IMG/VR virus record: IMGVR_UViG_2534681934_000027
Length of the DNA stretch: 13,819 bases
Origin: a virus
Lineage: Duplodnaviria > Heunggongvirae > Uroviricota > Caudoviricetes
Reading direction: 5' to 3' (one strand)
Of this stretch, positions 1 to 3,000 are shown one piece after another. The position numbers are program-made. How positions within the stretch are numbered: position 1 is the stretch's first letter; every line of letters begins with the position of its first letter.

Positions 1-3000
1 ATGAGCAGAGCACTTAACAAACTGAGCGATACACAGCTGAGGAAAATCAACGGCACACCCGCCCAAAAAACAGCCTTTCTTAATGACGGTGGAAACCTGA
101 GCGTCAGGCATTCAACCAGTGGCCTTTTAACCTGGTATTTCACTTACAGGGCCGGAACGGGAAGGGGGGCACCACCGGAACGCATTAAGCTGGGAAATTA
201 TCCTGATCTGAGCCTGAAATCAGCCAGGGAAAAAGCCGCCCAGTGTCGCGCATGGCTGGCAGAGGGGAAAAATCCACGTCATGAGCTTAATTACACCGTA
301 CAGGAAGCGTTAAAGCCGGTAACGGTTGGCGATGCGCTCACCTACTGGCTTGAGTCGTACGCAAAGGAAAACCGCGTGGATTATGCCGCCCTGAAAAAGC
401 GCCTTAATAATCACGTAATACAGCACATTGGTGCTATGCCGCTGGATAAATGCGAGCTACGGCACTGGCTGGCCTGTTTTGACCAGGTGGCAAAGCGAAC
501 GCCTGTTACTGCCGGATTCTTGCTACAGACGTGCAAACAGGCGCTTAAGTTCTGCCGGAGGCGGCGCTATGCAATCAGCAACGTTCTTGATGATATGAGT
601 GTGGCGGACGTTGGGAAAAAACCGGATATAAGCGAGCGTGTCTTAAGCACCAAAGAACTGGGCGAATTATTGCAGGCACTGGACAAAAAAATATTCTCCC
701 CCTACTACATCGCGTTAATCCGCCTCCTGATTGTGTTCGGATGCCGGACGGTAGAACTGAGGTTATCGGAGATCAGCGAGTGGGATTTTACCGAAATGCT
801 CTGGACCGTTCCGAAGGAGCACAGCAAAACGAAGGTAGCCATATTCCGGCCTATACCGGAAGCAATACTGCCGTTCATCACGCAGCTGGTGGAGCAGAAC
901 AGGCACACGGGCTTATTGCTGGGGGAAGTGAAACAGGAGGCCAGCGTATCGCAGTATGGAAGATTAGCGCACAGGAGGCTTAATCACCCTCACTGGTCAC
1001 TGCATGACATCCGGCGCACCTTTACAACCATGCTGAACGATTTAGGCGTTGATCCGCATGTCGTGGAGCAGCTTACAGGCCACCAGATGCCAGGAATGCA
1101 GCGAGTTTATAATCATTCCCGTTATCTGGATGCGAAACGCAATGCGCTGGATATGTGGACGGAGCGGTTAGGGATACTGGCGGGAACACATGAAAACGTA
1201 ACCACGCTACCAGTAGCCAGAAGAAAATAATTTTTTTCGTGTTTTTTCAGTATGCGCATACTGGATATGCGAACAGATACAACGTGCAACAATGAGCAAC
1301 AATGAGCAACAATGTGGAACAACTACGAACAAGAGGCGAAAAAGCGTACGGATTTATAAGTAGCTGATTTTTAATGTGTTACTGGTTTTTTATACACTAG
1401 CGAATCACTCTTTAAAGAGCGAGAAAAAAGGCATGGAACAATATTTTATGCCTTTGTATTAACATGAATTTAAAAGATTTTATTCTTACTTTTTCATTTT
1501 CTGTAAATCATACATCCTCAGTATTTGCCATTCATCACTCTAGCGGGAACAATACGACACAATAAGACACCTGATGACTCTTTAAGAAACGAAAGGGGGC
1601 AATAGTGTTAAGCACTGATCGGTTTATACGTGAAAAAGAATGCGAAAAACTAACCGGCCTTAGCCGTACGTGTCGCTACCGCCTGGAAAAGGCCGGACAA
1701 TTCCCATCACGTCGTAAACTTGGCGGTCGTTCCGTTGGCTGGTCTTTATCCGAGGTTCTGGCCTGGAAGGATAGCTGCAAGGCAGTTCATTAATCACGCT
1801 GGCGGCACACAGCCGCCACACATCAATCATCTGAACACAGAGCTATAACCATGAAGATTGAATATACGCCAGAACGTGGGCGGGGATTCGTTCGCCCTGG
1901 TGAGACTGGAAAACCACAAAATTGGGGTTTTTCAGGCATAAAAAAAGCGGCCCCGAAATGGAGCCGCCTTTCTGAACAGATAACCCGCTGCGCCTTATGT
2001 GTATATGATCCCAAACATAAGCACGGGGATGATAGCCGCTATCAGGCTGGTGGGCAATGCTATCAGTCTGGTTCAGTTCGTTGCCATACCTGCAATGGGC
2101 GCGTTTCCCTGTACTCTTTAAGGAATTGCTCAAGGGCAAAAGCACATGGCGCGAATCTTTCTGATTCATGCTCTATCTTTCTGCGCCGTCTTTTCCGTGC
2201 CGGTGATAATGTTTTGGTCAATTCTTTATCGGTCATTGTGTTGTCCTGCATAGCAATGCGCCGTAATACCTCACACCACGGCGCTGATAGTTTTTATCCT
2301 TTGGGTTCTATGCCGCGTTGCTGTAATTCTTTGCGGAGAACGCGTTTAATCCAAGTGGCTAAAGATGTGTCGCCATCGGCCTTAGCAGCTTCTTCTAGCT
2401 GCGCTCTGAAGTCTTCCGGTAATCGCATTTGGTATGGAGGCGAACGTTTTTCTAATGGTGTTGACATGGTAATTACCCTTTATTGCTATACCTACATGGT
2501 AATTACCATTGTACTTGCCATTACACAAAAATCAACGCCCCGCAGTGCTGGGAACACATACGGGGCGTCTAACCAACAACGTAAACTAGGAGCCGTTATG
2601 GTTGCCGTAAATCATATACCACACCTTGTACACACACAAACGGCCTTTGTGTGGCGTTTTCTGGCACTGAGTGCCGGAGAATCTCAAATCATCCACGTAA
2701 CCGCCTGGACGGAACGCGAAGCGCGTAACCGTTGCCCGTCCGGTTGTGTTGCTGTATTTGCCGCCCGTATTCGTCAGGAGGTGCGCCATGATTAATCTGT
2801 CACTTACTGACCTTAACCGCATTCAGTTTCGTGAGAAATTCACAGGGCAGCTACTGGTCAATGTGGATAAAGGTCGCGTGGTGTGTAATTACCACTTACC
2901 AGATGAAGCAATTGTCGCCACAAGGGAATCATTACAGGAAATCACAAAACGTGCCGGAATGATTAACACGAATATTCAGGGGATGCTTTATGCACAATAA

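What the first reader, a model, noticed from the sequence alone, without database searches (positions are those of the whole stretch)
1231..1604. Repeat-rich int-alpA intergenic region
The region contains a 16-bp perfect palindrome CAGTATGCGCATACTG (1248..1263), the phased decamer array (1271..1333), and two copies of ACTCTTTAA (1406..1414 within the palindrome CTCTTTAAAGAG, and 1578..1586 just before the alpA ribosome-binding site). These look like recombination-directionality or alpA control sites.
Basis: seen in the sequence. Interest (0 to 1): 0.45.

Follow-up and report, generated by a model that had tools for sequence, protein, structure and literature searches.

The report
Phased AlpA-type binding sites before alpA
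The gap between the integrase and alpA genes of this E. coli O157 phage satellite holds 10-bp-spaced repeats whose core (GAACAA) also recurs in the element's attachment-site arms, so they are most likely docking sites for the small AlpA protein that switches the island on and helps cut it out; this is a familiar design that has not been mapped for this family.

Summary
The window is the E. coli O157:H7 version of the phage-inducible chromosomal island EcCICFT073, inserted between roxA and phoQ. The sequence features are real. The 16-bp palindrome is exact. The 10-bp array is real. ACTCTTTAA occurs at 1407 and 1577, one base off the stated coordinates, and a third time at 2113.

Only the decamer array carries strong evidence of function. 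In seven diverged spacers the AACAA cores are invariant at a 10-bp phase while the linkers vary, and units are gained or lost in steps of exactly 10 bp. A second array sits at the alpA promoter and leader. The same core, inverted and phased, lies in both att arms next to doubled 12-bp repeats that track the integrase arm-binding domain.

This geometry and core match the mapped sites of the excision factor TorI (GTTCG, 10-bp phase). AlpA is a 62-aa winged-helix protein closest to a solved excisionase and 45% identical to P4 Vis. The published AlpA-autoactivated fragment of EcCICFT073 is this spacer.

Best reading: AlpA binds the arrays as a dual excision factor and autoregulator. The palindrome is lineage-specific. 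The first ACTCTTTAA lies in a variable hairpin just upstream of a conserved terminator-like hairpin. Binding itself is untested.

The parts
1..1230 (+). int: P4-type tyrosine integrase, 409 aa, with an N-terminal arm-binding domain
   Evidence: Pfam Arm-DNA-bind_3, Phage_int_M and Phage_integrase. RefSeq annotates it as an integrase.
1248..1263 (.). Perfect 16-bp palindrome CAGTATGCGCATACTG, 18 bp after the int stop codon. It is lineage-specific and its function is unassigned.
   Evidence: Exact. Invariant in 7 of 10 spacers, has one central mismatch in the O170 island, and is absent from CFT073 and O166. It has no T-run after it on either strand. Folding z-score is -2.7 on the + strand.
1278..1333 (+). 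Distal phased array: six in-phase 10-bp units with cores TACAA, AACAA x5 (GCAACAATGA x3, GGAACAACTA, CGAACAAGAG). Proposed AlpA binding array.
   Evidence: Tandem Repeats Finder. Cores are invariant in 7 of 7 lineages while linkers match in only 3-6 of 7. The window carries one extra GCAACAATGA unit compared with typical O157. The same core lies in the att arms.
1405..1422 (+). Small hairpin or dyad TCACTCTTT/AAAGAGCGA that contains ACTCTTTAA copy 1 (1407-1415)
   Evidence: Inverted repeat I14. Relatives have CGCTTTAACGCG or CGCGTTAAAGCG, so the stem is kept through changes on both sides. It is broken in CFT073 and O166.
1427..1455 (+). Conserved terminator-like hairpin AAAGGCATGGAA/TTTTATGCCTTT, most likely the 3' end of int transcripts. 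It would shield alpA from int read-through.
   Evidence: Fold of -16.8 kcal/mol, z = -3.25. 97% of cells are paired in 6 variants, against 29-64% for slid controls. One pair follows the path A-U to G-U to G-C, and the wobble pairs are valid only in + strand RNA. The U-tract is weak, so the terminator scan did not call it.
1525..1553 (+). Candidate alpA promoter: TTGCCA, 17 bp, AACAAT (weak -10)
   Evidence: Promoter scan. TTGCCA-17-(A/C)ACAAT is kept in all window-type and CFT073-type spacers, even though the sequence between the hexamers differs. No transcription start site has been mapped.
1546..1590 (+). Proximal phased array GGAACAATAC GACACAATAA GACACCTGAT GACTCTTTAA GAAAC. It overlaps the candidate -10 and the leader, and it includes ACTCTTTAA copy 2 (1577-1585).
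   Evidence: One unit is deleted as exactly 10 bp in strain SJ7, and the alternative allele is also 10-bp phased. It sits in the same 10-bp register as the distal array, 220 bp away.
1605..1793 (+). alpA: 62-aa winged-helix protein, GTG start
   Evidence: Pfam Phage_AlpA, 61.8 bits against a cut-off of 21. The AlphaFold2 model has pLDDT 86, and its best PDB match is the GIsul2 excisionase 8C3T, TM 0.79-0.85. It is 45% identical to P4 Vis and 94% identical to EcCICFT073 AlpA.
6620..6637 (+). Pair of phased units AAACAAACAGACACAA, just upstream of the ribosome-binding site of the ORF that starts at 6651 and after a terminator. A possible further AlpA site.
   Evidence: One of only 3 exact matches to RAACAANNNNACACAA in the window (0.01 expected). 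The pattern was defined after seeing the data.
12210..12236 (-). Right-arm (attR side) array TTGTGTC / TTGTTCC / TTGTTTC at 10-bp phase. This is the spacer core in inverted orientation.
   Evidence: It is identical in CFT073 and in the tqsA-site island.
12253..12276 (+). Doubled 12-bp repeat GGTGTAGTTAAT GGTGTAGTCAAT: proposed integrase arm-type sites of the right arm
   Evidence: Tandem Repeats Finder. It changes to GTCACT/GTCATT in both arms wherever the Int N-terminal domain changes. The geometry matches the annotated attP arm repeats of P4.
12351..12360 (.). Shared end sequence GGACATATTT (att core region), at the stop codon of phoQ
   Evidence: Present at both ends of the island. The left boundary was located by comparison with the tqsA-site island.

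Best explanation
The int-alpA spacer is the control region of alpA in an EcCICFT073-type phage-inducible chromosomal island (PICI). Its working parts are two arrays of 10-bp-phased units with the core (G/C)(G/A/C)AACAA, degenerating to GACACAA. The distal array lies at 1278-1333. The proximal array lies at 1546-1590, over the candidate promoter and leader.

I infer that both arrays are binding sites for AlpA. The same core, inverted and phased, forms arrays in both att arms, between or beside the doubled integrase arm-type repeats.

Proposed mechanism:
- A helper phage first raises alpA transcription.
- AlpA, a 62-aa winged-helix protein of the excisionase type, then assembles head-to-tail on the phased units.
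- On the spacer arrays this gives the positive autoregulation measured for EcCICFT073. The two arrays are about 21-22 helical turns apart, so a loop between them is possible.
- On the att arms it bends the DNA so that Int can excise the island.
- A conserved + strand hairpin (1427-1455) between the arrays ends int transcripts, which keeps alpA from being driven by int.

What is shown: the anatomy of the sites, their conservation, their recurrence in the att arms, and the excisionase-type fold of AlpA.
What comes from published experiments: autoactivation, and the need for alpA in excision.
What is inferred: that AlpA is the binder, that it forms a filament, and that the arrays loop.
For: 1. 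Selection on the phased core. In 7 diverged spacers the AACAA columns are 7 of 7 invariant while linker columns match in 3-6 of 7. EcCICFT073 and the O166 island are only about 60-70% alike here yet keep 6 phased units.

2. Indels come in whole units. The window has one extra distal unit compared with typical O157. Strain SJ7 lacks one proximal unit. The O170 island lacks one unit in the attL arm.

3. The same core lies in the att arms. All exact AACAAN5AACAA hits in 32 kb fall in the attL arm, the spacer or the attR arm. TTGTTCC and TTGTTTC are the only 7-mers repeated in the arms and, inverted, in the spacer; the null mean is 0.03-0.12. RAACAANNNNACACAA occurs 3 times against 0.01 expected: at the proximal array, upstream of the ORF at 6651, and in the attR arm.

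4. An island lineage with a diverged AlpA and a very different spacer shows the same pattern. The SCU-106 and A34 islands sit at another insertion site and their AlpA is 60% identical. They carry TTGTTCG x3-4 at 10-bp phase in both arms and CGAAC x2-3 phased, inverted, upstream of alpA.

5. The other arm motif belongs to Int. GGTGTAGTTAAT x2 changes in both arms exactly where the Int N-terminal domain changes (21 of the 35 differences lie in aa 1-60), while the AACAA arrays and AlpA stay the same. P4 has the same doubled 12-bp arm repeats.

6. Precedent. TorI sites in the attL of KplE1 are GTTCG, GATCG and GTCCG; three of them are phased at 10 bp and lie over the int promoter (PMC2951348; sequence).

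7. The protein. It is a Phage_AlpA member. Its model best matches the GIsul2 excisionase, and also matches the RdfS and Pukovnik excisionases. It is 45% identical to P4 Vis.

8. Published function. AlpA activates a PalpA-lacZ fusion, and its over-expression causes int-dependent excision (PMC6092414). By its primers, that fusion spans L007 15603-16058, which is the whole spacer. [quoted passage not shown]
Against: - No binding data exist for any PICI AlpA. The assignment rests on elimination and analogy.
- In EcCICFT073, AlpA did not change Pint-lacZ although that fragment holds the attL array. TorI, by contrast, represses its int promoter.
- The distal array lies about 210-270 bp upstream of the candidate promoter and on the far side of a terminator-like hairpin. 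The proximal array overlaps the -10 and the leader, which is a position more typical of repression than activation.
- The promoter is only a consensus match; no transcription start is mapped.
- The core differs little between the two AlpA alleles (GGAACAA against CGAACAA), so covariation with AlpA is weak.
- EcCIMP1, a distant PICI, has no such arrays.
- Part of the helper-phage induction is AlpA-independent, so another factor also acts on this region.
Confidence: 0.58

Rival explanations
1. The arrays are bound by a helper-phage protein rather than, or in addition to, AlpA. The candidate is the helper's own excisionase. The precedent is P2 Cox, which binds three 10-bp-phased cox boxes upstream of the P4 promoter that drives vis. 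The arrays would then be the sensor through which the satellite detects helper induction.
For: Helper phages raise alpA transcription through an unidentified factor (PMC6092414), and part of that rise does not need AlpA (PMC11773190). In P4, the three 'type 2' decamers upstream of vis read TTAAAGTCA, TTAAAGCCA and TTAAAGCAA, which is the cox-box consensus as I recall it. AlpA-family excisionases from different elements can substitute for one another.
Against: The same core lies in both att arms of the island, where an island-specific factor is expected. AlpA alone, without a helper, triggers excision and autoactivation. No helper-phage protein was examined here.
Confidence: 0.12
2. The AACAA units are arm-type sites of the integrase. 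Int bound in the spacer would regulate alpA or the end of its own transcript.
For: The units lie in both att arms, as arm-type sites do. Int has an arm-binding domain.
Against: The doubled 12-bp GGTGTAGTTAAT repeats follow the Int N-terminal domain, while the AACAA arrays stay identical when that domain changes. P4 and the helper-embedded PICIs have the same doubled 12-bp geometry. The spacer arrays lie 1.3-1.6 kb from the core. A 10-bp phased GTTC-type motif is the mapped TorI (excision factor) site.
Confidence: 0.07
3. The arrays are bound by some other island-encoded or host DNA-binding protein. Candidates are a PerC-family or YlcI/YnfO-family protein of the island, or H-NS, which could silence the AT-rich spacer.
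For: The spacer is 30-37% G+C against about 50% in its flanks. H-NS silences alpA in the Shewanella element CP4So (PMC5148205). The island encodes other small regulators.
Against: The core is a specific sequence conserved at an exact 10-bp phase, which does not look like H-NS binding. The pattern matches known excision-factor sites. Nothing links another protein to the att arms.
Confidence: 0.1
4. The decamers act in RNA, as part of the int 3' untranslated region (distal array) and the alpA 5' leader (proximal array). They could serve, for example, as CA-rich translation or stability elements.
For: If int transcripts end at the 1427-1455 hairpin, the distal array is transcribed. The proximal array and the 6620-6637 pair lie directly before ribosome-binding sites.
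Against: The arm copies are inverted and lie in untranscribed or differently transcribed DNA. Strict 10-bp phasing and whole-unit indels point to the DNA helix. No Rfam family matches the spacer at E of 1 or below.
Confidence: 0.05
5. The array is a slippage-prone tandem repeat without function, or it is the replication origin.
For: The number of units varies between strains. P4's decamers were originally annotated as origin repeats.
Against: Invariant cores with variable linkers across diverged lineages are the opposite of neutral drift. A separate iteron family, AAAAGTGAGG with at least 7 copies at 5381-5574, lies downstream of the RepA helicase gene, where PICI origins are reported.
Confidence: 0.04

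Closest known systems
TorI sites in the attL of the E. coli prophage KplE1 (CPS-53)
   Same: A small winged-helix excision factor. Its sites have a GTTC-type core (GTTCG, GATCG, GTCCG), three of them at 10-bp phase. They lie between the att core and the integrase arm-type sites, directly upstream of a co-oriented int gene. The SCU-106 relatives carry exactly TTGTTCG at 10-bp phase.
   Different: TorI is only a remote relative of AlpA: Phage_AlpA E = 0.12, below the cut-off, and 29% identity. TorI represses Pint, whereas EcCICFT073 AlpA did not affect Pint. No TorI array upstream of torI itself is known to me. Here the arrays lie in both arms and upstream of the factor's own gene.
Dual-purpose excision factor and transcription regulators: P2 Cox, coliphage 186 Apl, P4 Vis (from my own knowledge of these systems; the role of Vis in excision is cited in PMC6092414)
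   Same: One small protein binds runs of direct repeats about one helical turn apart. It does so both at the attachment site, to direct excision, and at a promoter region, to control the developmental switch. Vis is a true homologue of AlpA, 45% identical.
   Different: Cox, Apl and Vis act mainly as repressors at their switch promoters. PICI AlpA is reported to be an activator. Here there are two arrays about 220 bp apart with a terminator-like hairpin between them.
EcCICFT073, the prototype Gram-negative phage-inducible chromosomal island (Fillol-Salom 2018, PMC6092414)
   Same: Same insertion site (roxA/phoQ), same gene order, AlpA 94% identical, same att arms. The spacer is homologous and keeps both arrays.
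   Different: The window island uses a RepA-family helicase instead of the primase as its replication gene. It has the 16-bp palindrome, which EcCICFT073 lacks, and an IS3-family insertion in terS. The published work did not map AlpA sites.
Cox boxes upstream of P4's late promoter and vis
   Same: Three 10-bp-phased decamers upstream of the alpA homologue of a satellite, in the region that controls its induction.
   Different: The core sequence (TTAAAGNCA) is different and the binder is the helper phage's protein. These boxes are not repeated in the P4 att arms in the sequence I read.
Pseudomonas aeruginosa AlpA, a Q-like antiterminator (PMC9371919)
   Same: It shares the family name and the helix-turn-helix, and it binds DNA at a promoter.
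   Different: Its helix-turn-helix lies near residues 128-142 of a much longer protein, whose N-terminal part forms a ring in the RNA exit channel. A single molecule binds one 6-bp element, GGGACG. The 62-aa protein here has no such N-terminal part.

Membership tests
Gram-negative PICI of the EcCICFT073 type | int followed by a co-oriented alpA at the left end | tested here: met
   int 1-1230 and alpA 1605-1793, both on the + strand
Gram-negative PICI of the EcCICFT073 type | A replication gene with an origin downstream, and captured packaging genes | tested here: met
   RepA-family helicase at 3982-5382, then AAAAGTGAGG iterons at 5381-5574. Major capsid, decoration and terS genes follow.
Gram-negative PICI of the EcCICFT073 type | Same chromosomal attachment site and att arms as the prototype | tested here: met
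   Both islands lie between roxA and phoQ, and their arms are nearly identical
Gram-negative PICI of the EcCICFT073 type | Induction and transfer by a helper phage | not testable with these tools
   Shown experimentally for EcCICFT073 only (PMC6092414). In this copy terS is interrupted by an insertion sequence.
Pfam Phage_AlpA (PF05930) | Profile score above the gathering cut-off | tested here: met
   61.8 bits against a cut-off of 21
Winged-helix excisionase (recombination directionality factor) | Excisionase-type winged-helix fold | tested here: met
   Model pLDDT 86. Best PDB match is the GIsul2 excisionase 8C3T (TM 0.79-0.85, rmsd 1.3 A). RdfS and Pukovnik Xis are also matched, with E-values above 0.001.
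Winged-helix excisionase (recombination directionality factor) | Phased direct-repeat sites in an att arm, next to the integrase arm-type sites | tested here: met
   TTGTTCC, TTGTTTC, TTGTAGC and TTGTGCA at 10-bp phase between the core and the GGTGTAGTTAAT pair in attL. Three phased units lie in the attR arm.
Winged-helix excisionase (recombination directionality factor) | The protein binds those sites and is needed for excision | not testable with these tools
   Genetic requirement is shown for EcCICFT073 and EcCIMP1. Binding has never been assayed.
Dual-function excision factor and regulator (Cox, Apl, Vis type) | The same site motif at the attachment site and at a regulated promoter | tested here: met
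   The pattern is repeated in the SCU-106 lineage.
Dual-function excision factor and regulator (Cox, Apl, Vis type) | The protein regulates transcription through those promoter sites | tested here: inconclusive
   The AlpA-responsive fragment is the whole spacer. The responsive element has not been resolved to the arrays.
Intrinsic terminator (hairpin 1427-1455) | G+C-rich stem followed by a U-run | tested here: inconclusive
   The 12-bp stem is conserved and its wobble changes are valid only on the + strand. The tail is only UUUGUAUU, and the scan did not call it.
LexA (SOS) box, considered for 1259-1278 | A conserved CTG-N10-CAG operator with SOS control | tested here: not met
   TACTGGATATGCGAACAGAT is altered or deleted in relatives. 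alpA expression is reported to be independent of the SOS response.
Replication-origin iterons, considered for the decamers | Repeats next to the replication gene that match the replicon's iterons | tested here: not met
   A different iteron family lies downstream of repA. The decamers are unrelated to it.
AlpA/Q-type antiterminator (P. aeruginosa AlpA) | An N-terminal domain that forms a ring in the RNA exit channel | tested here: not met
   The protein has 62 residues, all of them in the winged helix. Compare.

The most novel reading that the evidence does not exclude
The phased arrays are the point where the satellite senses its helper. The helper prophage's own winged-helix excisionase, made early after induction, would cross-bind the GAACAA/GACACAA arrays and fire alpA. 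AlpA would then take over on the same sites for autoactivation and excision. This would name the long-sought inducer of Gram-negative PICIs and would make unit number (5 or 6 in O157 strains) a tuning knob for inducibility.
Probability: 0.1. Interest if true: 0.75.

Novelty: new member of a known kind. Interest (0 to 1): 0.4.

Why it matters
AlpA is the master switch of Gram-negative phage-inducible chromosomal islands, which are widespread in E. coli and move virulence and anti-phage genes. Where AlpA binds has not been described in the papers I could find. The helper-phage signal that turns alpA on is also unknown.

This analysis gives a concrete, testable operator: the core, the 10-bp phase, and four locations. 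It explains how one 62-aa protein could couple autoactivation with excision. It separates the likely integrase arm sites from the likely excision-factor sites in this att site. It also points to natural variants with different unit numbers that could be compared directly.

The design itself is already known from P2 Cox, 186 Apl, P4 Vis and TorI. A specialist would therefore find it useful rather than surprising.

Tried and rejected
- LexA box at 1259-1278. It is not conserved, and alpA is reported to be SOS-independent.
- Antiterminator mechanism of P. aeruginosa AlpA. That protein is much longer and needs an N-terminal ring domain.
- Decamers as the replication origin. A separate iteron family lies after repA.
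- ACTCTTTAA as cox-box-like helper sites. Its reverse complement, TTAAAGAGT, matches TTAAAGNCA only in part. The copies are not tandem, and copy 1 is not conserved.
- Rfam search of the whole window at E of 1 or below. Nothing was found in the spacer.
- Minus-strand terminator reading of the 1427-1455 hairpin. It has a T6 tail on that strand, but the wobble substitutions pair only on the + strand.
- Scan of species-representative genomes with an AlpA alignment. It returned one Shigella copy and distant alphaproteobacterial proteins, which are of no use for covariation.
- EcCIMP1 as a further independent lineage. It has the doubled 12-bp arm repeats (TGGGGGTA) but no GAACAA arrays. One 9-mer, TACTAAAGT, is shared between the arm and the spacer, and that is within chance.
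- Small ORFs in the spacer (41 and 66 aa, TTG starts). Not pursued; they are not annotated in any relative.
- Alternative promoters directly downstream of the distal array, or on the minus strand at TATAAA 1394-1389. I checked these by eye only; none is convincing.
- Structure prediction with the 5-sequence alignment.
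Full report
WHAT THE WINDOW IS

The spacer 1231-1604 is 100% identical to E. coli O157:H7 strain F8797. It is found, at 80-100% identity, in 695 of 5426 complete E. coli genomes.

In that genome the window is an island inserted between roxA and phoQ. Its genes in order are: integrase, alpA, Icd-like genes, a DUF4222 gene, a RepA-family helicase, SSB, PerC, major capsid, decoration protein and small terminase.

EcCICFT073 is the prototype Gram-negative phage-inducible chromosomal island (PICI). It occupies the same site with the same order of genes, and its AlpA is 94% identical. The window is therefore the O157 member of that family.

Apart from two single-base indels, the window differs from F8797 by a 1310-bp IS3-family insertion at 9826-11135, inside terS.

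CHECKING THE OBSERVATION

- The palindrome is exact at 1248-1263.
- The decamer array is real. Tandem Repeats Finder gives 1286-1322, period 10. In-phase cores lie at 1278, 1288, 1298, 1308, 1318 and 1328.
- ACTCTTTAA is exact at 1407-1415 and 1577-1585, one base off the stated positions, with a third copy at 2113-2121.
- A perfect 16-bp palindrome is expected 0.25 times per window, so it is weak evidence on its own. The array is far beyond chance.

COMPARATIVE ANATOMY OF THE SPACER

I aligned ten spacers from islands at three insertion sites (roxA/phoQ, tqsA, yifB).

- The AACAA cores of the distal array are invariant in all seven distinct lineages, while the five linker bases vary.
- EcCICFT073 and the O166 island are strongly diverged here. 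They lack the palindrome, yet they carry six phased units that start closer to the int stop codon.
- Indels are whole units. The window has one GCAACAATGA more than typical O157. Strain SJ7 lacks exactly one proximal unit. The O170 island lacks one unit of the attL-arm array.
- The palindrome is therefore a lineage-specific derivative and not a conserved operator.
- The first ACTCTTTAA lies in a small hairpin whose stem changes from CTC/GAG to CGC/GCG in relatives and is broken in CFT073. The second copy is invariant and belongs to the proximal array and leader.
- The hairpin at 1427-1455 is conserved. 97% of cells are paired across six variants, against 29-64% for slid controls. One pair follows the path A-U to G-U to G-C, and six wobble cells pair only in + strand RNA. 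I read it as the end of int transcripts, although its U-tract is weak.

THE LINK TO THE ATTACHMENT SITE

Upstream of int, outside the window, the sequence reads ccTTGTTCCAgcTTGTTTCAcgTTGTAGCCctTTGTGCAacg, followed by GGTGTAGTTAAT twice. At the right end it reads TTGTGTCtatTTGTTCCAcgTTGTTTCA, followed by GGTGTAGTTAAT GGTGTAGTCAAT (window 12210-12276).

Comparison with the tqsA-site island places the left boundary just before these motifs, so both sets lie in the arms of attP.

The TTGTT units are the reverse complement of the spacer units and keep the 10-bp phase.
- All six exact AACAAN5AACAA matches in 32 kb fall in the attL arm, the spacer or the attR arm.
- An unbiased count of 7-mers repeated in the arms and in the spacer returns only TTGTTCC, TGTTCCA and TTGTTTC.
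- The composite RAACAANNNNACACAA occurs three times against 0.01 expected: at the proximal array, in the attR arm, and just upstream of the ORF at 6651. This pattern was chosen after seeing the data.

WHICH PROTEIN BINDS WHICH MOTIF

The tqsA-site and yifB-site islands have an integrase that differs mostly in residues 1-60, the arm-binding domain (21 of 35 differences). In both arms their 12-bp repeats read GGTGTAGTCACT or GTCATT instead of GTTAAT. Their TTGTT arrays are unchanged, and their AlpA is the same or nearly the same (61 of 62 residues in the tqsA island, about 90% in the yifB island).

P4 has doubled 12-bp repeats in both arms at similar distances from the core, annotated as attP arm repeats. 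A 2023 survey described the same doubled motif in helper-embedded PICIs without assigning a binder.

I therefore assign the 12-bp repeats to Int and the phased TTGTT/AACAA units to another protein.

The best candidate is AlpA.
- It is a Phage_AlpA member.
- Its model (pLDDT 86) best matches the solved GIsul2 excisionase. It also matches the RdfS and Pukovnik excisionases and the MerR-type winged helices.
- It is 45% identical to P4 Vis.
- The mapped sites of the excision factor TorI in KplE1 are GTTCG, GATCG and GTCCG. Three of them lie at 10-bp phase between the core and the Int arm sites, upstream of a co-oriented int.
- The SCU-106 and A34 islands have an AlpA only 60% identical. They carry exactly TTGTTCG at 10-bp phase in both arms. 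They also carry phased CGAAC units, again inverted, 110-140 bp upstream of alpA in a very different spacer.

FIT WITH PUBLISHED EXPERIMENTS

In EcCICFT073:
- AlpA activates a PalpA-lacZ fusion.
- AlpA does not affect Pint.
- Over-expressed AlpA causes int-dependent excision and replication without a helper.
- Helper phages raise alpA transcription through an unknown factor (PMC6092414).

Mapping the published primers shows that the PalpA fragment runs from 33 bp before the int stop codon to +58 of alpA. It therefore contains the whole spacer with both arrays.

[quoted passage not shown] The same paper shows that AlpA-family excisionases from different elements can substitute for each other.

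PROPOSED MECHANISM

AlpA binds head-to-tail on the phased units.
- At the att arms it acts as the directionality factor for Int.
- At its own gene it gives positive feedback.
- The candidate promoter TTGCCA-17-(A/C)ACAAT is conserved across the spacer alleles.
- The proximal array starts at its -10. The distal array lies 220 bp upstream in the same register in all window-type spacers. The distance is 221 bp in CFT073 and 232 bp in the O166 island, that is about 21 or 22 helical turns. This would suit a loop between the two arrays.

These last steps are inference. The positions are unusual for a simple activator, and the transcription start is unmapped.

RIVALS

- A helper-phage protein could bind the arrays, as P2 Cox binds the three phased cox boxes upstream of vis in P4. 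I cannot exclude this, and I give it as the most novel reading.
- Integrase arm binding is disfavoured by the covariation described above.
- An origin function is disfavoured by the separate AAAAGTGAGG iterons after repA.
- A neutral repeat is disfavoured by the core-and-linker conservation pattern.
- An RNA role is disfavoured by the inverted arm copies and the lack of any Rfam match.
- The P. aeruginosa AlpA antiterminator mechanism does not transfer, because this protein lacks the N-terminal ring domain.

VERDICT

The finding is real for the array and ordinary in kind. It is a dual-purpose excision-factor and regulator site set, as in P2 Cox, 186 Apl, P4 Vis and TorI, and it has not been mapped for Gram-negative PICIs in the literature I could search. 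The palindrome and the ACTCTTTAA pair do not hold up as shared control sites. Direct binding remains to be shown.

Noticed in passing
window 9826-11135: A 1310-bp IS3-family insertion sequence on the minus strand. It has two overlapping ORFs and an ALIL frameshift pseudoknot at 10684-10800, with a 3-bp target duplication. It interrupts the small-terminase gene of the island and is absent from strain F8797.
   Followed up: partly
window 5381-5574: At least seven copies, in both orientations, of the iteron AAAAGTGAGG directly downstream of the RepA-family helicase gene. This is the likely replication origin of the island.
   Followed up: partly
window 12253-12276 and L001 14725-14748: Doubled 12-bp repeats GGTGTAGTTAAT in both att arms. 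They change to GTCACT/GTCATT together with residues 1-60 of the integrase in islands at tqsA and yifB. P4 (GGGGGCA) and EcCIMP1 (TGGGGGTA) have the same doubled geometry. They are likely Int arm-type sites.
   Followed up: yes
window 6620-6637: AAACAAACAGACACAA, two phased units of the same kind as the alpA-proximal array. They lie just before the ribosome-binding site of the ORF at 6651 and after a terminator at 6533-6556. This may be a further AlpA-controlled start.
   Followed up: partly
window 12128-12143: A second perfect 16-bp palindrome, TATGGGGATCCCCATA, about 70 bp left of the right-arm array. It is conserved in CFT073 and in the tqsA-site island. Next to it is a hairpin, ACCGGAAAAAAAATCCGGT.
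   Followed up: no
window 2113-2121: A third exact ACTCTTTAA (context gtACTCTTTAAGgaa), inside the region annotated as an Icd-like pseudogene. Its context resembles the copy before alpA (gACTCTTTAAGaaa).
   Followed up: no
window 1286-1295, compared with L039: The window and 6 other genomes carry one GCAACAATGA unit more than most O157:H7 genomes (374-bp against 364-bp spacer). This is a natural unit-number polymorphism in the proposed operator.
   Followed up: yes
L004/L006 (strain PM4-5) and L011 (O166:H15): Integrases 91% identical to the one here direct insertion into different sites (tqsA, yifB). Most of their differences lie in the arm-binding domain rather than the catalytic part.
   Followed up: partly
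L038 about 11690-11720 (SCU-106 island, right-end accessory region): CGAACAACGAACAAGCTTGACA: two CGAACAA units abutting a consensus -35 hexamer in the accessory region of a related island.
   Followed up: no
L037 9176-9205 (P4): The three 'ori type 2' decamers of P4, read on the vis strand, are TTAAAGTCA, TTAAAGCCA and TTAAAGCAA. These are phased cox boxes 146-175 bp upstream of the vis start codon.
   Followed up: partly
window 1389-1416, minus strand: A possible leftward promoter, TTTAAA-16-TATAAA, inside the invariant block ACTGGTTTTTTATACA. It would read antisense through the distal array and the end of int. It rests on a consensus match by eye only.
   Followed up: no
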